Source: a virus (Duplodnaviria; Heunggongvirae; Uroviricota; Caudoviricetes). Taken from it: DNA of 8,274 bases. Below, in pieces: positions 939-8,206 of this stretch (its first letter is position 1; each line of letters begins with the position of its first letter). The notes under the pieces are model-generated. The model worked only from the letters and a program-made list of their open reading frames with translations. It was not told where the DNA came from and made no database searches. Location: the IMG/VR virus record IMGVR_UViG_3300014523_000046. One strand, given 5' to 3'. A program made the position numbers and the translations under genes.

Positions 939-1193
939 TCACTTTCTTAAATCTAACGATAGACGGCTAACATTTAAGTATTGTGAAATATTATCAAATG
1001 TAATCATCATTGATTTACAAAAGATACATTTTGCCCCGAAAGGATTCCTGTCAGAAACATCAAAAGATGATGTTCTATACTGAGAACCATGGCAACACGG
1101 GCATCTAAAGTGAATATGGTTTGTAATATTATCTACCTCAAAGTGCCACAACATGAACAGCCGCGGGGCCTTTAGGTCCGTTCTCAATACCAA
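939..1193 (-). CDS. Candidate small Cys-rich (zinc-ribbon-like) protein, start uncertain
   Basis: ORF contains C-P-C-C ... 21 aa ... C-I-F-C (CxCC...CxxC), a pattern unusual for a random ORF, and ends 8 nt before a terminator hairpin. The codon at 1193 is TTG with AGGAAG 7 nt upstream; the first ATG is at 1154. Either start overlaps the 3' end of the cspI-like gene (stop 1138) in another frame, which lowers confidence. Confidence 0.3.
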
Positions 1194-1350
1194 ATTCGAC
1201 TTCCTGATTCTCAGTTAACGTTTTGAAATCGTTGCTCTGAATAGCTGAGAAATGGACAAACACATCTTTGCTACCATCTTTCGGCGTGATGAAACCAAAA
1301 CCTTTTTCAGGGTTAAACCATTTCACTAAACCAGTCATTTTGTTAGACAT
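1138..1350 (-). CDS. cspI: Cold-shock protein, CspA family (CspI-like, 70 aa)
   Basis: Translation [70 protein letters not shown] carries the RNP1/RNP2 cold-shock-domain motifs (KGFGFI, VFVHF). Two tandem ATGs at 1353 and 1350; the second gives the canonical MSNKMTGL N-terminus. AAAGGTAATA SD-like sequence upstream, typical of csp genes. Stop TGA 1138-1140. Confidence 0.9.
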
Positions 1351-1353
1351 CAT

Positions 1354-1713
1354 TATTACCTTTTGAAGAAGTTAGCCCTTGGGCAGAATGGTCCGAAAAA
1401 AAATATCAGAGAGAAAAACCAACAAGGAAATCTCAAGAGGTACAAATAATAAAATTATAACAATGACTGCTTCAGATAATTTTGTAACAAACCAGAACAC
1501 CATTAACGCATGATTAACCAACCATAGCAAGGATTACTTTTGTAAAGAAAAACACACGAATGAAACAATAGCTTTATTTATTAATAAAACGTGTCATTCT
1601 GTCTAATGACCTTTTATCTTACCCTTAAGATTTCAAGGATTTTGACTCATGGAAGAGTCCTTTTTATTTAAATTTCACATTCAGCGCTAAAAATAATCCG
1701 ATTTAATATTAAT
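1354..1713 (-). promoter_or_regulatory. AT-rich upstream region of the cspI-like gene (promoter plus probable long 5' UTR)
   Basis: A 360-bp non-coding AT-rich gap between the Rz stop (1714) and the csp start. CspA-family genes characteristically have long structured 5' UTRs. I did not locate an exact cold-box match by eye. Confidence 0.4.
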
Positions 1714-2854: not shown

Positions 2855-3115
2855 ATGGATTACACAAATCTACCTAAACAAACTTTTGCTGATTTAATCG
2901 CACTCAGGCAAGCAGTCGTAGCTCTAATCAACTTGTTGCCGGAGAAGGAAAAGGAATTAGTTAAAGCGCTTCTTAACAGAACTGCCGCCGATTTTTCATC
3001 ATATCCACTGACAGATGACCTTGCGGACCTTCCTGAATTAATTGCAGCGTCCGCCAATAAGCTTACTGAAGAGATTTACCCTCCTCAAAAATCTTCACAA
3101 AATTCCTGCGAGTAA
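2855..3115 (+). CDS. Candidate small acidic protein (86 aa), convergent with and overlapping the 3' end of the DUF1327-like gene
   Basis: ATG at 2855 preceded by AGAGG at about 6 nt spacing. Lies in the 320-bp gap between the endolysin start and the upstream gene. Its 3' end overlaps the minus-strand gene by about 53 nt. No recognisable family. Confidence 0.25.
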   Translation: MDYTNLPKQTFADLIALRQAVVALINLLPEKEKELVKALLNRTAADFSSYPLTDDLADLPELIAASANKLTEEIYPPQKSSQNSCE

Positions 3116-3614
3116 CTTCAATGCAATAATCGTAAAACGCCGCAAACTGCTCATCGCGGCGTTTTTTTTCATCTTCAGAAGGAATCAGCACCGACAATTT
3201 TTTATTCAGATCAGCGACGCTGCCCTCCAGTTTTTCAATGGGCGATTCAATATCATCTTTTTCTGACCGCAATGCCGTCGGTGGCGTCTTCAGAGAACCA
3301 GTAATTCTTCCCGGTAGCTTTCCTTTGTAGGTTATCCACACATTCTGCGCCTCTAAAATTATGGGGCGCTTTTCCGGCGACTGCTCATCCCCTTCACATA
3401 ACCCGGCAGCAACATCCAGGAAGACCTGTCTGATGCTCCTTCTGGCTGCTGCCTCATAAAACTCCAGCGCGGCACCTTCAACACGGTCCAGCGAGATGTC
3501 CAGGTCAAAAATTTCACCGTCAAAGTGTTTTTTGTCCCGTAAGGCTACAGTTACCGCCACTTTATTCTCAAAATTGCGAACTCCTTTCACAACCAGTTCA
3601 TAGTCTTGAGTCAT
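3063..3614 (-). CDS. DUF1327 (YdfR-like) prophage protein with about 100-aa C-terminal extension (183 aa)
   Basis: N-terminal about 80 aa (MTQDYELVVKGVRNFENKV...DGEIFDLDISLDRVEGAALEFYEAAARRS) match my recollection of the YdfR/DUF1327 family that sits between holin and endolysin in Qin-like prophages. The track ORF begins at a TTG (3635); the first ATG is at 3614, just after the holin stop. Stop TAA 3063-3065. Confidence 0.65.
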   Translation of the reverse strand: MTQDYELVVKGVRNFENKVAVTVALRDKKHFDGEIFDLDISLDRVEGAALEFYEAAARRSIRQVFLDVAAGLCEGDEQSPEKRPIILEAQNVWITYKGKLPGRITGSLKTPPTALRSEKDDIESPIEKLEGSVADLNKKLSVLIPSEDEKKRRDEQFAAFYDYCIEVTRRNFVKIFEEGKSLQ

Positions 3615-3618
3615 TGGA

Positions 3619-3834
3619 TTACTCTCTTCTCGCAACCTTACGCCTGTCTTCTTTAATCTTGAAATAAAGGTTTGTCAGATACGTCAGCATGCCAAATACC
3701 AGACTACCCAATACACCTATTGCCGCCCACTGTGAGGGCGTGACTTTATCGAGCAACTGTAAAAACCAGTAGCCAGCACTGCCTGCAGAGGTGCTGTAGG
3801 CGATGCCCGTTGTTAACTTATCCATGGATTTCAT
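3619..3834 (-). CDS. Class II holin, phage-21 S-like pinholin (71 aa) with dual-start motif
   Basis: Within track ORF 3619-3918, ATG at 3834 with strong SD (GGAGGTGAGGCT-ATG) gives [71 protein letters not shown]: two TM segments, a charged C-terminus, and the MKSM dual start (Met1/Met4) typical of S21. Confidence 0.9.
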
Positions 3835-3924
3835 AGCCTCACCTCCGCAGATAACGGATGGTGTACACGGTTTGGTTCGAAGAAGGAAAGAAGTTACATT
3901 AGCGTAAGGCCCGAACATCTATTC

Positions 3925-3956
3925 AAAAAGAAAAACGCCAGCAATTATTCTGGCGT
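3925..3956 (-). terminator. Intrinsic terminator downstream of the AraC-like gene
   Basis: Perfect 7-bp stem ACGCCAG/CTGGCGT (3935-3941 and 3950-3956) with an 8-nt loop; on the minus strand it is followed by TTTTTCTTTTT (plus 3925-3934). About 70 nt past the AraC stop (4025). Confidence 0.55.
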
Positions 3957-4024
3957 AGCTAAAAATATCGTATAATCTTACACTTCAAAAAATAACTTTA
4001 TAAAATGCCATCACATCATATCTT

Positions 4025-4738
4025 CTAAGAAAATCTTGATAAATATTGGTGCGGAGGCACACCAAAATATCCTCTAAAAACACTTACAAAATATGATGCA
4101 TTGTCATACCCGCATATTCCCGCCACCTTGCCGACAGTATGGTTACTGTAGATCAATAATCTTTGCGCCATCATCATTCGTTCTTCAAGAATTAATTTAC
4201 TAAACGATAATCCTTCGTTTTTTAATTTTCTTTTTAACAAACTCTCGCTCATATATAATCTTGAAGATATATCACAAAGTCTCCATGACGCTGAGATATC
4301 CGAGTGAATAATAGCCTTAACTTTACAACCTAAGCTATTAAGACTTCCGAACAAAAAACTTTGCACTATTTTCTCTGAAGATAAGACAGCAAGACATGCA
4401 AGTGATATTTGATTTCTAACTACATCCACGGTTTTGCTATCACAATTCAAGCATGCAACCAAGTTCCTTAACAATGAAAAATCTTCACATTCTACTATCA
4501 AGTATGACGGATAAAACCTTCTTACAGAAAAAGGTGAGAGTGTGTAGTTTTTAAAGAAATCATTAACTGTTTTCTCCTCAACATCTACGATCATTAGATG
4601 ATCTGTATTTGACGAAAAAAGATCTTTTAAATTGTATTCAATGAGGACAGCATTTCCTTTTTTAAACAAAATATCTTCTTTACCAATTCGGACAACAAAC
4701 GAGTTCAACACCAAAATGATAGAACATATGTATGGCAT
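4025..4738 (-). CDS. AraC/XylS-family transcriptional regulator (237 aa), AT-rich horizontally acquired type
   Basis: C-terminal about 100 aa carry the double helix-turn-helix of AraC/XylS proteins (...SESLLKRKLKNEGLSFSKLILEERMMMAQRLL...VGKVAGICGYDNASYFVSVFRGYFGVPPHQY). The N-terminal domain is not recognisable. The codon at 4747 is GTG and lies inside the SD; ATG at 4738 with AGGTGG 5 nt upstream is the likely start. Very low GC compared with the lysis genes. Confidence 0.85.
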   Translation of the reverse strand: MPYICSIILVLNSFVVRIGKEDILFKKGNAVLIEYNLKDLFSSNTDHLMIVDVEEKTVNDFFKNYTLSPFSVRRFYPSYLIVECEDFSLLRNLVACLNCDSKTVDVVRNQISLACLAVLSSEKIVQSFLFGSLNSLGCKVKAIIHSDISASWRLCDISSRLYMSESLLKRKLKNEGLSFSKLILEERMMMAQRLLIYSNHTVGKVAGICGYDNASYFVSVFRGYFGVPPHQYLSRFS

Positions 4739-5144
4739 ATTATCCACCTGATATCATTGGGGTTACACCAGGTAAGTATAGGTGGAAAATCAATATTCGC
4801 CAGTTCAACAATAAGGAAAATCTCATTGCATCACAACTATAAAACCATGTGTTTAACTCACAAAAAACAAATCATTAAACTAATCTGTTATATTATAATA
4901 GCTGCGTGCAATAATAATATTATATGCTCTTAATATTCACTTGAAATATCTTCATATAAAAACAGATTGAATAAAATCTTTTGGGGCTGGTATGTTTACC
5001 AACATTAAATTGCATCTCAATGTTTTCTTTAGCGTGAACAGGATTTTTATACAAACTGACACTATGGGCATCATAGCGTAGTTTTTACGATTGTAAATAT
5101 CCTGCATACAGGAACTCATCACTTTCAGATGATATCGCATACAG
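4739..5144 (-). promoter_or_regulatory. AT-rich intergenic region upstream of the AraC-like gene (probable promoter and silencing region)
   Basis: About 400 bp of strongly AT-rich non-coding sequence with many A/T tracts, between the DUF523/DUF1722 stop and the AraC start. The only ORF here (4952-5140) looks spurious. Typical of xenogeneic promoter regions; no specific hexamers assigned. Confidence 0.35.
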
Positions 5145-6104
5145 TTAATTCACCATCAGTCTTAGAGCCAGTTCTTCCGGATAGGGATCGAAGTAATTCT
5201 GTGTAAGCAAGTAATCATTAGGATACTCACCCAGATAATGCTTCAGCAGAGTCAACGGCGCAAGAAGAGGCAATGTGCCAAAGCGATAGTTAAGTATAAC
5301 CTCGCTCAACTCTTTACGCTGGCGTGTACTTAAGTAATTACTAAAATACCCCTGTATATGCATCAGCACATTCGTGTGATTTTTACGTGATGCTGGTTTT
5401 CTGAGAATCGCCATCAGATTATCACGATACACCTCAAAGTATGATTCAAGGTCCGCCCACTCGTGTATTGCAGCCACAAATGGTCCCATATCTTTATAGC
5501 CTGCCTGGCTATGCGCCAACAACTGAAGCTTATAACGACTATGAAAAGCTAATAACTCTCTTCTTGATAATTTCTCCTTGTAAAGATGATTGAGCTCATG
5601 CAAAGCAAAAACTCTTTCAATAAAATTCTCACGAAGCACTGGATCATGTAATCGCCCATCCTCTTCAACCGGTAGCCAGGAAAACTTTTCCATCAAAGTG
5701 CTCGTAAATAGTCCCACTCCATCTTTACGACCTCGATTACCATTTTCATCATAGACACGCACGCGCTCCATGCCACAGCTGGGAGATTTAGCACAAACCA
5801 CAAACCCCGATACATCCTTTAATTTGTCCATATAAGAACGACTAAACTCTGTCATTCTCTCTGTCACATCCTCATTCTGGTCGTGGCTGAAACACATCCG
5901 TATATTTCCTTGCTTCGAGCGCACAAGTCGTAGAGCAGGACGCGGAACTGGCAGCCCTATAGCCATTTCCGGACATACTGGTCTGAATGTTACCCATTCC
6001 ACTAATTTGTCCATTAAAAAGTCATCTCTTTTGTGACCACCATCAAAACGAACAGCAGAACCGCCCAAACAACCGCTGATCCCAATCACAGGTTTTTTTA
6101 TCAT
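5145..6104 (-). CDS. DUF523 (TudS-like Fe-S) + DUF1722 (YbgA-like) fusion protein (319 aa)
   Basis: N-terminus MIKKPVIGISGCLGGSAVRFDGGH with Cys at about 12, 44 and 104 (SPSCG) matches the three-Cys [4Fe-4S] ligand pattern of DUF523/TudS-type proteins. The C-terminal half is helical and YbgA/DUF1722-like. ATG at 6104 preceded by AAGGGGGAGGAA. Stop TAA 5145-5147. Confidence 0.8.
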   Translation of the reverse strand: MIKKPVIGISGCLGGSAVRFDGGHKRDDFLMDKLVEWVTFRPVCPEMAIGLPVPRPALRLVRSKQGNIRMCFSHDQNEDVTERMTEFSRSYMDKLKDVSGFVVCAKSPSCGMERVRVYDENGNRGRKDGVGLFTSTLMEKFSWLPVEEDGRLHDPVLRENFIERVFALHELNHLYKEKLSRRELLAFHSRYKLQLLAHSQAGYKDMGPFVAAIHEWADLESYFEVYRDNLMAILRKPASRKNHTNVLMHIQGYFSNYLSTRQRKELSEVILNYRFGTLPLLAPLTLLKHYLGEYPNDYLLTQNYFDPYPEELALRLMVN

Positions 6105-6296
6105 TTCCTCCCCCTTGACTAATTCATTAACACATAAACTTTGTAGTGCACGGACTAAATTGCCTTTCTGGCTTCATCACTGACAATTTTTCTGTTATTG
6201 ACTATTCCTAATATAGTAGGAAAGTTCTTTAAGTGATCGGTCGTACTCATCTATCTTTCATACTTACTCTCAACTATCAAAAGTACAGGATTTATT

Positions 6297-6821
6297 ATGA
6301 AGTTATGGCCTGTGTTGACTGGCATTGCACTCTCTTTCACTCTTATAGCATGTAAGGCCCCGACACCACCTAAAGGTGTGCAGCCGATTACAAATTTTGA
6401 CGCCAACCGCTACCTCGGAAAATGGTATGAAATAGCTCGCCTCGAGAACTGGTTCGAACGTGGTCTGGAACAGGTCAGCGCTACTTATGAAAAACGGAAC
6501 GACGGAGGGATTCGCGTACTTAACCGTGGATACGATCCAACGAAAAACAAATGGAGCGAGAGCGAAGGTAAAGCATACTTTACTGGAGATACTAAAACTG
6601 CAGCGTTGAAAGTTTCGTTTTTTGGCCCCTTCTATGGTGGCTATAATGTAATCAAGCTGGATGATGAGTATAAGTATGCTCTTGTCAGTGGTCCGAACAG
6701 AGAATACCTATGGATTCTGGCAAGGACCCAAACTATTCCAGATAATGTAAAAGCAGACTATGTGCGTACCGCTCAAAAGTTGGGATTCAATGTCAATGAA
6801 CTATTATGGGTTAAACAATAA
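6297..6821 (+). CDS. Bacterial lipocalin Blc-like outer-membrane lipoprotein (174 aa)
   Basis: Signal peptide with lipobox L-I-A-C (MKLWPVLTGIALSFTLIACKAPTPPKG) and lipocalin core motifs shared with Blc (NFDANRYLGKWYEIAR, KVSFFGPFYGGYNVI, YLWILAR). SD AGGA 6 nt before the ATG. Plus strand, opposite to the surrounding phage genes. Confidence 0.9.
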   Translation: MKLWPVLTGIALSFTLIACKAPTPPKGVQPITNFDANRYLGKWYEIARLENWFERGLEQVSATYEKRNDGGIRVLNRGYDPTKNKWSESEGKAYFTGDTKTAALKVSFFGPFYGGYNVIKLDDEYKYALVSGPNREYLWILARTQTIPDNVKADYVRTAQKLGFNVNELLWVKQ

Positions 6822-6849
6822 AATCCCCACCCGAAATGATACTTATTAG

Positions 6850-6877
6850 AAAAAAAACCAGCCTTTGGGGAGGCTGG
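6850..6877 (-). terminator. Intrinsic terminator downstream of Q (tR'-like); may also serve the convergent blc-like gene
   Basis: Perfect 7-bp stem CCAGCCT/AGGCTGG (6858-6864 and 6871-6877) with a 6-nt loop; on the minus strand it is followed by an 8-T run (plus A-run 6850-6857). Located about 100 nt downstream of the Q stop and 37 nt after the blc-like stop. Confidence 0.65.
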
Positions 6878-6879
6878 CT

Positions 6880-6977
6880 AAATCAGGAAACAAGCTGTTA
6901 TATGATAATAACTACGTTGCGATTCCAACATTTAAAATGTTAGACTAATGAAAATCAGACAGCAACTTTTCCTTTAA
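6880..6977 (-). promoter_or_regulatory. Candidate late promoter / Q-utilisation region between Q and the terminator
   Basis: By analogy with lambdoid pR'-qut-tR' organisation. Minus-strand hexamers TTGCTG (6965-6960) and TAACAT (6942-6937) with 17-bp spacing are one possible -35/-10 pair, which would predict a short transcript of about 80 nt. The assignment is speculative. Confidence 0.3.
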
Positions 6978-7355
6978 TTATTTCGAACAATCAGCATCCA
7001 TCTCCAATCGGAGATCCAACACCATCAGCATGCCCTCCACTACGCCCTCAGCTTTCTGGAGCATCCTGCCAACCCAACAATCAGATCGCCCATGCTTACG
7101 TGCAAGCGCCATAAAAGTCATGCCGCCGACATAATAGTCCACCAATAAATCATGTAAATCGCTGTTGTTTTTTTTCAGGCGAGCCATACATTCACAAATG
7201 ATCATCGCGTCATCGTCACAGCATTGCGGACGAGATCTTACTTTTGAAGGAATTAATCCCTTAAAACCGGCGGCAATGGACGACCAGGTCACATCTTCAT
7301 GATTATTAGCCGCCCATGCCCCCCAACGCTCAAGAACCATCTGAATATCACGCAT
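6978..7355 (-). CDS. Phage antitermination protein Q, short QuuD-like type (125 aa)
   Basis: Translation from ATG 7355 ([26 protein letters not shown]...[32 protein letters not shown]) matches my recollection of the approximately 127-aa Q-like antiterminators of DLP12-type prophages (Phage_antitermQ family). The track start at 7370 is a TTG; ATG 7355 has GGAG 8 nt upstream. Followed by a terminator, as expected for Q. Confidence 0.8.
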
Positions 7356-7372
7356 CAACTTACTCCACAAAA

Positions 7373-8206
7373 TTAGGCCAGCACACCAATTGCCAGCGCG
7401 CGATCGATAAATCGAAAAATCAGCTCCAGTTGGGAGCCATACTTCTCTTCAAATGCCACGGTATCCGTATGCAACTCGTCGTGATGCTTTCTGCACAAAG
7501 GCAACACAAAGAGATCATGTGCTTTGGTTCCCATTCCGCCCTGCCCGTGACCAATCAGATGATGCGGATCGTCGGCTGGCATACCGCAGCAAGCACACGG
7601 CTGTGTCTTAACCCAGCGTGTGTATTTCTCCTTAACCCAACGGTGACGTTTAGGCAGCTTCATGAAAGATTCCGGAGACTCTGGATCAACGGTGATGCTT
7701 ACCACCGTCTTTTCCTGTGATGGGTTTTGTTGCTGGTGGGCGTGAGGCAACGGTGCAAGATTTTTTGTGCGCTGTTTCAATATGCTGGTGGCGGTCTGCT
7801 CTCCCGGTACGATGTCGCTTTCGCGGTACACCGAGCAGTTTTTTTCCGCTGGTAATCCCAGCGAGCGACGTAATACCGCTTCCGGTAGCGCGTCCGCCAC
7901 CTGATTGCGGACCGCCCACCAGGATAATTCAGCCAGAGATAATTCACGCTCCTGCGTACCGCTTATTGTGTGACCGATGACGTCAATCATCCATGCTGAC
8001 AGGTTTTGATGAGCAAGTTGCTCGAGTGATTCGGATGTCTGGTCACGCAGCTGGTTGTCGCAGTGCCAGCACAACACCATTGCGCCGGTACCATAACGGT
8101 GAATAACGGTTTCGCTGTGATGATAATCGCCGAGTGGCCACTGGCAGGATTTAATATGGCGCAACAGCCAGTCAGACAATGCACCAGCACTGATCTTACC
8201 CAGCAA
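7373..8206 (-). CDS. Lambdoid nin-region protein with C-terminal Cys/His-rich DUF1364/DUF968-like (HNH-like) motif; start uncertain
   Basis: C-terminal segment ...[45 protein letters not shown] has the CxxC...HH...GTK...C..HH pattern I associate with YbcO/YdfU-type prophage proteins found upstream of Q. The track start codon (8206) is TTG with no SD; the first in-frame ATG is at 8080. Stop TAA 7373-7375, 17 nt before the Q start. Confidence 0.55.

What the first reader, a model, noticed from the sequence alone, without database searches (positions are those of the whole stretch)
6105..6849. Prophage-borne Blc-like lipocalin encoded antisense to late transcription
A complete lipoprotein-type lipocalin (lipobox LIAC, conserved lipocalin motifs) sits on the plus strand with its own SD, convergent with Q and sharing the terminator hairpin at 6858-6877. 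Chromosomal blc is a stress-induced envelope lipoprotein; a diverged phage-carried copy suggests an envelope-modifying conversion function (for example membrane repair or superinfection-related surface change). Its antisense orientation means Q-dependent late transcription would collide with its expression.
Basis: partly seen in the sequence, partly recalled or inferred. Interest (0 to 1): 0.5.

Follow-up and report, generated by a model that had tools for sequence, protein, structure and literature searches.

The report
Prophage-carried second outer-membrane lipocalin gene
A lambda-like prophage of E. coli carries an intact, conserved gene for an outer-membrane lipid-binding lipoprotein (a Blc-type lipocalin); this is a common, already-annotated phage passenger gene, and the new point is that it was captured with a tRNA-repair gene from a stress locus of other enterobacteria, not copied from E. 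coli's own blc.

Summary
Window 6297-6821 (+) is an intact 174-aa lipoprotein-type lipocalin of the Blc subfamily, with a Shine-Dalgarno (SD) sequence and lipobox LIAC. It lies convergent with Q, inside a complete Qin-like lambdoid prophage.

It is not new. About 19% of complete E. coli genomes carry it. Isolated lambdoid phages carry it, and Mathieu et al. 2020 list blc as a common lambda moron.

1. It is not a diverged copy of E. coli blc (59% identity; blc is in 5425 of 5426 genomes anyway). It belongs to a distinct paralog (73-82% identity) found in Enterobacter, Leclercia, Buttiauxella and Cedecea. There it sits divergently next to a MerR/MlrA-like regulator and a RudS-type tRNA 4-thiouridine desulfidase. 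The phage kept the lipocalin and RudS and lost the regulator.
2. The hairpin at 6856-6879 has its T-run only on the minus strand. It is placed as Q's tR' terminator, so it shields the lipocalin from antisense late transcription in the lysogen.
3. The TATAGT hexamer aligns with a conserved TATACT in the chromosomal loci.

Evidence for function:
- dN/dS among phage alleles is 0.06-0.20.
- 80 of 80 viral copies are intact.
- 18 of 19 Blc pocket residues are identical.
- Published proteomics detected a prophage allele and showed it induced by meropenem.

The biological role is untested.

The parts
6297..6821 (+). Lipocalin CDS (174 aa; protein WP_000780584.1), Blc subfamily, group-A paralog
   Evidence: same protein in C41(DE3)
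6342..6353 (+). Lipobox codons L16-I17-A18-C19; Lys at +2 predicts outer-membrane sorting (Lol rule, established knowledge)
   Evidence: translation; alignment with Blc
6287..6290 (+). Shine-Dalgarno AGGA, 6 nt before the ATG; aligns with AAGGAG in the chromosomal orthologs
6105..6296 (.). Divergent intergenic region between RudS and the lipocalin. Its right ~100 bp is homologous to the MerR-lipocalin intergenic region of the chromosomal loci.
6212..6217 (+). TATAGT -10-like hexamer. It aligns with the invariant TATACT inside the conserved motif CAATATACTACGAAT of the chromosomal loci. It may instead belong to the leftward promoter or operator.
6259..6264 (+). CATACT(TAC) second -10-like element, about 33 nt before the ATG. 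It aligns with the conserved CTACACTTAA (sigma-S-like) of the chromosomal loci.
   Evidence: the sigma-S consensus comes from my own knowledge
6846..6879 (-). Intrinsic terminator on the minus strand: 9-bp stem at 6879-6856 plus a T-run. It lies 99 nt downstream of the Q stop codon, so it is the inferred tR'.
   Evidence: z = -4.6; stem invariant in 78 viral loci; cassette architecture
6880..6977 (-). Q-terminator spacer expected to hold pR' and the sigma-dependent pause element. Candidates are TTGCTG-17-TAACAT and TGGAGA-18-AATAAT; neither is resolved.
6978..7370 (-). Antiterminator Q (PF06530; 86% identical to DLP12 QuuD)
5145..6104 (-). RudS/YbgA-type protein (TudS desulfidase + DUF1722), co-captured partner of the lipocalin
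4025..4747 (-). AraC-family regulator (YdeO/GadX-like), third gene of the cassette
3866..6996 (.). Approximate limits of the three-gene moron cassette, set where homology to cassette-less lambdoid phages stops
3619..3918 (-). Class II (phage 21-type) holin, first late lysis gene downstream of the cassette

Best explanation
The gene is a lysogenic-conversion ('moron') gene. It gives the E. coli lysogen a second Blc-type outer-membrane lipocalin.

Shown:
- The ORF is intact and has a lipoprotein signal peptide, the lipocalin fold and the Blc ligand pocket.
- It lies in the standard moron slot of lambdoid phages, between Q and the lysis genes, on the strand opposite to late transcription.
- A minus-strand terminator lies between Q and the gene's 3' end.
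- The gene is under purifying selection in phages.
- With its divergent neighbour RudS, it descends from a chromosomal locus of other Enterobacterales, in which a MerR/MlrA-like regulator sits between the two genes.

Inferred:
- The protein is lipidated at Cys19 and sorted by Lol to the inner leaflet of the outer membrane.
- There it binds a hydrophobic ligand of the kind E. coli Blc binds: fatty acid, lysophospholipid or tetrapyrrole.
- It is transcribed in the lysogen from the retained ancestral promoter region (6209-6267). The cognate MerR repressor is gone and tR' stops pR' transcripts, so nothing is expected to block it.
- After induction, Q-modified polymerase reads through tR'. It runs antisense across the gene and transcribes RudS and the AraC-like gene in sense. 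The lipocalin therefore serves the lysogen, not the lytic cycle.
- The most likely benefit is envelope and lipid homeostasis under stress.
For: Identity and fold. Pocket: 18 of 19 residues listed for Blc in PMC8177097 are identical, plus K77R.

Prophage context and layout. The same Q-lipocalin-RudS-AraC-holin order occurs in isolated phages IdasGreatGrand and Lambda_1H12, on different lambdoid backbones, and in 57 of 80 IMG/VR loci; most of the remaining 23 lack or show only part of one or more flanking genes.

Origin:
- Group-A loci show lipocalin divergent from MerR-(UraH-like)-RudS. Their lipocalins are 73-82% identical to the phage lipocalin and their RudS 70-72% identical to the phage RudS.
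- True blc orthologs (frdD-ampC-blc-gdx-ecnB) are only 57-61% identical.
- The upstream motifs are retained.

Selection: dN/dS 0.06-0.20 with dS up to 0.20. Lipocalin is intact in 80 of 80 viral loci. Only 12 phage-lineage changes occur at positions conserved in group A; most are conservative and five lie in the signal peptide.

Terminator polarity and conservation. Q cassette logic.

Expression: the 97.9% nucleotide-identity prophage allele WP_000780581.1 (as in L092) was quantified by TMT proteomics. It rose 2.0-fold and 3.0-fold after 15 min of meropenem.

Precedent for the layout: DLP12 has quuD(+), nmpC(-), essD(+).
Against: - No phenotype has been measured for this gene, and E. coli Blc itself has no settled function.
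- No sigma-70 promoter reaching 9 of 12 matches was found on the plus strand in 6105-6296. The two -10-like elements are weak at -35.
- No canonical plus-strand terminator follows the gene.
- The window allele, shared with BL21/C41 and 29 of the 80 IMG/VR loci, carries R52W, G65E and P145Q at positions otherwise conserved. R52W is next to pocket residue F53. This allele may be impaired.
- The proteomic identification could include peptides shared with chromosomal Blc, and it concerns another allele.
- pR' was not located with confidence.
Confidence: 0.6

Rival explanations
1. Photo-oxidative / near-UV protection module. The lipocalin works with RudS as a regulator-stripped remnant of a light-responsive locus. 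The lipocalin would scavenge or shuttle peroxidised or otherwise damaged envelope lipids. RudS would remove photosensitive s4U from tRNA. Together they would make lysogens more tolerant of UVA, blue light or lipid peroxidation.
For: The chromosomal orthologs sit next to a MerR/MlrA/CarH-like regulator with RudS. In Cedecea and Scandinavium they sit next to an SDR-amine oxidase-DUF1365-CFA-synthase-like-DUF2878 cluster. RudS genes are typically in LitR/MerR light-responsive operons. Scavenging of lipid peroxidation products has been proposed as a common feature of lipocalins.
Against: Gene adjacency is the only link. No paper found ties this lipocalin to light. The regulator that would confer light control is missing from the phage. 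The gut is dark. In BL21 RudS is destroyed by IS3 while the lipocalin stays intact, so the two are not obligatorily coupled.
Confidence: 0.2
2. Superinfection exclusion or receptor masking. Like the lipoproteins Cor or T5 Llp, the phage lipocalin would bind an outer-membrane receptor and block adsorption of related phages.
For: It is a phage-encoded outer-membrane lipoprotein expressed from the prophage. Membrane proteins dominate lambda morons.
Against: The pocket is 18 of 19 identical to Blc. The phage lineage shows only 12 changes at conserved positions, most of them conservative, relative to chromosomal orthologs that have no phage role. No similarity to Cor or Llp families was detected. 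Nothing indicates a new protein-binding surface.
Confidence: 0.06
3. Neutral hitch-hiker. The gene is carried because it lies in a recombination-tolerant slot between Q and the lysis genes, and it gives no benefit.
For: Mosaic junctions lie at about 3866 and 6996. The window allele carries three unusual replacements. The neighbouring genes decay in some strains (IS3 in RudS, frameshifted AraC-like gene).
Against: dN/dS is 0.06-0.20 across alleles with dS up to 0.2. The gene is intact in 80 of 80 viral loci, and about 1045 of roughly 1135 E. coli genomes with a close match have a place covering at least 80% of the gene. It remains intact even where its neighbours are disrupted. The protein was detected.
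Confidence: 0.1

Closest known systems
E. coli Blc (b4149; PDB 1QWD, 2ACO, 3MBT), the ampC/gdx-adjacent outer-membrane lipocalin
   Same: Same NCBIfam subfamily, length and lipoprotein signal. Same predicted fold (TM 0.85, rmsd 1.5 A). 18 of 19 ligand-contact residues are identical.
   Different: Only 59% identical. Different genomic lineage: not in the frdD-ampC-blc-gdx synteny, and it groups with a separate paralog. Phage-borne and present in only about 19% of genomes, against 5425 of 5426 for blc.
Group-A enterobacterial lipocalin next to a MerR/MlrA-like regulator and RudS (Enterobacter, Leclercia, Buttiauxella, Huaxiibacter, Raoultella, Cedecea, Scandinavium)
   Same: 73-82% identical. 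Same 174-aa length, same K77R signature, same divergent orientation to RudS, and retained upstream motifs and SD.
   Different: The MerR-type regulator, and the UraH-like gene where present, are missing in the phage. An AraC-like gene is added. DNA similarity is confined to coding regions at 65-75%, so the donor is unsampled or the capture is old.
'blc' moron of infant-gut lambda phages (Mathieu et al. 2020, PMC6969025; e.g. Lambda_1H12, NC_049947)
   Same: The same gene (96% aa) in the same Q-blc-YbgA-regulator-holin arrangement.
   Different: The paper lists it as a frequent moron with a proposed membrane-biogenesis role. It does not address origin, the RudS linkage or the terminator.
nmpC / lc porin moron of DLP12 and PA-2
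   Same: An outer-membrane protein gene placed just downstream of a QuuD-type Q (86% identical). It is on the strand opposite to the late genes and ahead of the holin.
   Different: It is a porin, not a lipocalin. The sequence between Q and the moron is unrelated.
Bor/Iss, Cor and Llp phage outer-membrane lipoproteins
   Same: Small prophage-expressed outer-membrane lipoproteins that change host properties (own knowledge; bor is noted).
   Different: No sequence or fold relationship. Their roles (serum resistance, receptor blocking) are not indicated here.

Membership tests
Blc-subfamily bacterial lipocalin (NCBIfam NF007786 / Pfam PF08212) | Profile score above the curated cutoff over the full length | tested here: met
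   312.6 bits against a cutoff of 267, residues 1-174; PF08212 146 bits against 24
Blc-subfamily bacterial lipocalin (NCBIfam NF007786 / Pfam PF08212) | Eight-stranded antiparallel beta-barrel with an N-terminal 3-10 helix and a C-terminal alpha-helix | tested here: met
   The AF2 model has strands at 41-142 and a helix at 149-161. Foldseek top hits are Blc structures at TM 0.85. This is a predicted structure, not a solved one.
Blc-subfamily bacterial lipocalin (NCBIfam NF007786 / Pfam PF08212) | Lipoprotein signal peptide with lipobox Cys and a non-Asp +2 residue (outer-membrane anchoring) | tested here: met
   Sequence ...TLIAC19-K20. Actual lipidation and localisation cannot be tested with these tools.
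Blc-subfamily bacterial lipocalin (NCBIfam NF007786 / Pfam PF08212) | Conserved ligand-pocket residues of Blc | tested here: met
   18 of 19 identical, plus K77R
Ortholog of E. coli chromosomal blc | Closest similarity to, and synteny with, frdD-(ampC)-blc-gdx-ecnB | tested here: not met
   57-61% identical to that group against 73-82% to the MerR/RudS-linked group. No synteny.
Ortholog of E. coli chromosomal blc | RpoS-dependent stationary-phase promoter | not testable with these tools
   Only a sigma-S-like -10 (CATACTTAC, aligned to CTACACTTAA) is seen.
Phage moron (lysogenic-conversion gene) | Lies inside a phage genome and is dispensable for phage functions | tested here: met
   It is internal to a complete prophage. 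Related Q and holin modules occur in phages without the cassette.
Phage moron (lysogenic-conversion gene) | Own promoter and terminator, independent of phage transcription units | tested here: inconclusive
   There are conserved -10-like elements but no strong sigma-70 match and no plus-strand T-run terminator.
Phage moron (lysogenic-conversion gene) | Expressed from the repressed prophage | tested here: inconclusive
   Published proteomics detects allele WP_000780581.1 without a prophage-inducing agent and shows it induced by meropenem. That is another strain and allele, and peptides shared with Blc are possible.
MerR/LitR-type light or photo-oxidative stress locus | Adjacent MerR-family regulator controlling the divergent genes | tested here: not met
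   There is no MerR gene in the window. The regulator is present in all but one of the group-A loci carrying a divergent RudS or CFA-synthase cluster (absent in L020).
MerR/LitR-type light or photo-oxidative stress locus | Linked RudS (TudS+DUF1722) gene | tested here: met
   5145-6104 (-), 72% identical to the RudS of locus L008
Q-dependent late regulatory cassette (Q, pR', pause element, tR') | Intrinsic terminator on the Q strand shortly downstream of Q and ahead of the late genes | tested here: met
   6879-6846 (-), 99 nt after the Q stop codon, stem invariant in 78 loci
Q-dependent late regulatory cassette (Q, pR', pause element, tR') | Identified pR' promoter, Q-binding element and sigma-dependent pause element | tested here: inconclusive
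   Only weak candidates exist. The spacer sequence is unrelated to DLP12's.

The most novel reading that the evidence does not exclude
The lipocalin and RudS together are a regulator-stripped stress module that lambdoid phages spread through E. coli. Lysogens would gain two things that E. coli lacks but Enterobacter-like relatives encode chromosomally under MerR/LitR-type control. The first is an extra outer-membrane lipocalin that handles damaged or peroxidised envelope lipids. The second is a full tRNA s4U desulfidase. The strand arrangement would split the module in time: the lipocalin only in lysogeny, RudS boosted by Q read-through during lytic growth.
Probability: 0.15. Interest if true: 0.6.

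Novelty: already known. Interest (0 to 1): 0.27.

Why it matters
About one in five complete E. coli genomes carry this second lipocalin on a prophage, including the laboratory workhorse BL21/C41(DE3). Proteomic and genomic studies label it simply 'Blc', which conflates two paralogs. It is a separate, horizontally acquired paralog that travels with a tRNA 4-thiouridine desulfidase. Recognising this gives a concrete handle on the unresolved function of bacterial lipocalins. It also gives a testable idea: that temperate phages distribute envelope and tRNA stress-protection genes. The practical gain is modest, namely better annotation and a clear deletion experiment. The existence of the gene is neither new nor surprising.

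Tried and rejected
- Rfam scan of the window. The only real hit is the cspA thermoregulator upstream of cspI. The match at 6849-6892 (-) to 'Betaproteobacteria toxic sRNA' scores 30.5 bits against a gathering score of 50. I treat it as a terminator look-alike.
- tRNA scan: none, unlike Stx phages at this position.
- I tried to separate the terminator from the lipocalin module by finding phages with the same Q-to-terminator spacer but no lipocalin. None turned up. Homology to other Q genes stops at window ~6996, inside the Q 3' end, so the spacer and the cassette always travel together.
- Alignment of the Q-downstream spacer with DLP12: unrelated. pR' could not be transferred by homology. The Q21 paper gave the architecture but no sequence I could use, and Q21 is a longer protein.
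- DNA-level search for the donor: only 65-75% identity, confined to coding regions, so no donor species can be named.
- Literature searches linking lipocalin to LitR or singlet-oxygen regulons found nothing relevant. The Sumi et al. 2020 paper is not held.
- I did not establish whether the AraC-like gene is PsrA, PsrB or PatE. It is only YdeO/GadX-like, below the cutoffs.
- My first script for ORF intactness mislabelled all copies as broken because it read one codon too many. This was corrected.
- The intactness classes for the AraC-like gene and the holin are confounded by divergent alleles. I did not use them.

Full report
**What is in the sequence**

The window is the late-control and lysis region of a lambdoid prophage. 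On the minus strand lie:
- a DUF968 (YdfU-like) gene at 7373-8206;
- antiterminator Q at 6978-7370 (PF06530);
- a phage-21-type holin at 3619-3918;
- a YdfR-like ORF, a lysozyme, Rz/Rz1 and cspI.

Three genes sit between Q and the holin:
- the lipocalin at 6297-6821 on the plus strand;
- a TudS+DUF1722 (YbgA/RudS-type) gene at 5145-6104 on the minus strand;
- an AraC-family gene at 4025-4747 on the minus strand.

The window is 100% identical over 4000-7400 to E. coli PSJ-07. There it lies inside a complete Qin-like prophage with integrase, immunity, replication, head and tail genes, next to rspAB/ynfA.

**Check of the observation**

The ORF is intact (174 aa). AGGA lies 6 nt before the ATG. 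The signal peptide ends in L-I-A-C19, followed by Lys.

It scores as Pfam Lipocalin_2 (E=7.5e-43). It also scores as NCBIfam 'outer membrane lipoprotein Blc', above the curated cutoff (312.6 against 267 bits). It matches solved E. coli Blc at E=8e-67.

An AlphaFold2 model (mean pLDDT 84.5; the signal peptide is disordered) has the eight-strand barrel and the C-terminal helix. It superposes on Blc 1QWD/2ACO/3MBT with TM 0.82-0.85 and rmsd 1.1-1.5 A.

Of the 19 residues within 4 A of the ligand in the Blc-heme structure (PMC8177097), 18 are identical and one is K77R.

TATAGT is at 6212-6217.

**The hairpin**

The terminator scan reports it on the minus strand only: a 9-bp stem at 6879-6856 followed by TTTTTTCTAA.
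- Folded as minus-strand RNA, the region is strongly structured (z = -4.6).
- As plus-strand RNA the hairpin forms but is followed by CUAAAUCAGG, and the segment is not unusual (z = -0.8).

The hairpin lies 99 nt downstream of the Q stop codon. The established Q cassette is the Q gene, then pR', a sigma-dependent pause element and a terminator, then the late genes. I therefore read the hairpin as tR'.

The stem is invariant in 78 related viral loci, while the T-run varies from 6 to 8.

I could not place pR' with confidence. There are two weak candidates. The spacer is unrelated to that of DLP12, although the Q proteins are 86% identical.

The consequence is the reverse of 'sharing'. In the lysogen tR' keeps constitutive pR' transcripts from entering the lipocalin gene antisense. 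After induction, Q-modified polymerase should read through. It would then transcribe the lipocalin antisense, and RudS and the AraC-like gene in sense. These last steps are inference.

**Distribution and prior knowledge**

The gene occurs at 95-100% nucleotide identity in about 1045 of 5426 complete E. coli genomes. It is found in 126 IMG/VR contigs.

Isolated phages carry it too. Examples are IdasGreatGrand from swamp mud and about ten infant-gut lambda phages such as Lambda_1H12, where it is annotated 'Lipocalin Blc'.

The order Q-lipocalin-RudS-AraC-holin recurs on different lambdoid backbones. It is seen in 57 of 80 IMG/VR loci; most of the remaining 23 lack or show only part of one or more flanking genes.

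Mathieu et al. 2020 already state that blc, 'a bacterial lipocalin', is a moron present in more than half of their lambda phages. PHROGs holds the family as phrog_2809, function unknown.

E. coli's own blc is present in 5425 of 5426 genomes. The phage gene is therefore an extra copy, not a displaced chromosomal one.

DLP12 shows the same design with a different cargo: quuD (+), nmpC (-), essD (+).

**Origin**

The protein is only 59% identical to K-12 Blc. A scan of one genome per species, followed by tblastn with marker proteins, separates two enterobacterial groups.

- Group B covers Salmonella, Citrobacter, Atlantibacter, Buttiauxella and others.
  - It is 57-61% identical to the phage protein and 75-79% identical to K-12 Blc.
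  - It lies in frdD-(ampC)-blc-gdx-ecnB. These are the true blc orthologs.
- Group A covers Enterobacter species, Leclercia, Buttiauxella, Huaxiibacter, Raoultella, Cedecea and Scandinavium.
  - It is 73-82% identical to the phage protein and 60-67% identical to group B.
  - Its context is the lipocalin divergent from a MerR-family regulator, then often a hydroxyisourate-hydrolase-like gene, then a RudS gene. That RudS is 70-72% identical to the phage RudS and in the same relative orientation.
  - The regulator resembles MlrA over its full length but scores below the equivalog cutoff, and it has a CarH-like N-terminus.
  - In Cedecea and Scandinavium the regulator heads a SnoaL2-SDR-amine oxidase-DUF1365-CFA-synthase-like-DUF2878 cluster instead.

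Buttiauxella izardii has both paralogs (L018, L024).

The phage pair is therefore a group-A locus that has lost its regulator. The last ~100 bp upstream of the lipocalin is still alignable:

| Element | Group-A loci | Window |
|---|---|---|
| Second -10-like element | CTACACTTAA (sigma-S-like by my own knowledge of the consensus) | CATACTTAC, at 6259-6267 |
| Shine-Dalgarno | AAGGAG | CAGGAT |

DNA identity to any sampled donor is only 65-75% and is limited to coding regions.

**Evidence that the gene is functional in phages**

- Pairwise dN/dS among six phage alleles is 0.06-0.20, with dS up to 0.20.
- All 80 viral copies are intact, as are 75 of 77 RudS copies.
- In C41(DE3) the lipocalin is intact although IS3 has destroyed RudS and the lysis region.
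- Only 12 positions conserved in group A differ in the phage lineage. Most of these changes are conservative, and five lie in the signal peptide. That argues against a new function such as receptor masking.
- A 2026 proteomics paper quantified WP_000780581.1 in E. coli CCUG 70745. This is the protein of the 97.9% nucleotide-identity prophage allele. It rose 2.0-fold and 3.0-fold after 15 min of meropenem, alongside envelope-stress proteins. The authors label it simply 'Blc'.

Two caveats apply to the proteomics: peptides may be shared with chromosomal Blc, and the allele is a different one.

The window allele (WP_000780584.1, identical in C41(DE3)) carries R52W, G65E and P145Q at otherwise conserved positions. 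R52W lies in the open-end loop next to pocket residue F53. This allele class is common, at 29 of 80 IMG/VR loci.

**Mechanism**

The following are shown: identity, fold, pocket, lipoprotein signal, position, strand, terminator polarity, selection and origin.

The following are inferred:
- lipidation and Lol sorting to the outer membrane;
- binding of a Blc-type ligand. Blc binds fatty acids and phospholipids in vitro and possibly tetrapyrroles, and its physiological role is unsettled;
- expression in the lysogen from the retained promoter region without its cognate repressor;
- silencing by antisense late transcription after induction.

The benefit to the host is unknown. General envelope and lipid homeostasis under stress is the conservative reading.

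The link to RudS suggests a photo-oxidative or near-UV role. RudS is a tRNA s4U desulfidase usually found in LitR/MerR light-responsive operons. That link rests on adjacency alone.

**Novelty and verdict**

The feature is real, intact and probably functional, but it is ordinary for a lambdoid phage. It is already annotated and published as a moron.

What this analysis adds:
- the paralog assignment;
- the co-capture with RudS and the loss of the regulator;
- the reinterpretation of the hairpin as tR';
- a pointer to existing protein-level evidence.

Interest is low to moderate.

Noticed in passing
window 5145-6104 (-): A full-length TudS desulfidase + DUF1722 fusion, that is, a RudS-type tRNA 4-thiouridine desulfidase (PMC11417400), carried by the phage and oriented in sense with Q-dependent late transcription. 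The NCBIfam model for E. coli YbgA covers only the 169-aa DUF1722 half. The prophage may therefore give E. coli an activity its own ybgA lacks. The RudS paper does not mention prophage copies.
   Followed up: partly
window 4025-4747 (-), and the AT-rich spacer 4748-5144: An AraC-family regulator most similar to YdeO, GadX and HilD, below all cutoffs. GC content is 28-36%. It varies far more between cassette alleles (76-86% aa) than the lipocalin does (96-97%). I did not test whether it equals the prophage regulators PsrA, PsrB or PatE, or whether it controls the cassette.
   Followed up: partly
window 6450-6452, 6489-6491, 6729-6731 (codons 52, 65, 145 of the lipocalin): The window allele (WP_000780584.1, also in C41(DE3) of the BL21 lineage) has R52W, G65E and P145Q. 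The outgroup and the other phage alleles have R, G and P or S at these positions. R52 is invariant in the chromosomal orthologs and adjoins pocket residue F53.
   Followed up: partly
window 1092-1508 (-): A full-length Rfam cspA thermoregulator match (112.8 bits against a gathering score of 78), covering the 5' leader and start of the prophage cold-shock gene cspI.
   Followed up: no
window 2855-3115 (+) and 3063-3635 (-): An 86-aa plus-strand ORF (phrog_2572, annotated hypothetical in RefSeq) overlaps the 3' part of a 190-aa YdfR-like ORF. RefSeq annotates that ORF as a truncated pseudogene. This may be a small insertion between the holin and the lysozyme.
   Followed up: no
L093 (E. coli plasmid NZ_CP081685.1, 163319-172647) and L008 (metagenome contig): The Enterobacter-type locus (AAA ATPase, RudS, UraH-like, MerR, divergent lipocalin) also occurs next to IS26 on a 304-kb E. 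coli plasmid, with the lipocalin truncated. The chromosomal version of the module is therefore mobile by a second route.
   Followed up: no
L011 (JARKOR010000135.1, 'Candidatus Nanosynbacter' MAG, 2113 bp): This contig carries a lipocalin 97% identical and a Q 98% identical to the E. coli prophage. It is almost certainly a mis-binned E. coli prophage fragment in a Saccharibacteria MAG.
   Followed up: no
L096 (Morganella phage IME1369_01, 4001-4516): A 50%-identical Blc-like lipoprotein gene sits between the lysis genes and the small terminase, co-oriented with them. This is an independent capture of a lipocalin by another temperate phage, in a different slot and orientation.
   Followed up: partly
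PMC13459554, Table 1: A proteomics study reports 'Blc' induced by meropenem. The accession it gives (WP_000780581.1) is the prophage paralog, not chromosomal Blc. This is an example of the two being conflated in the literature.
   Followed up: partly
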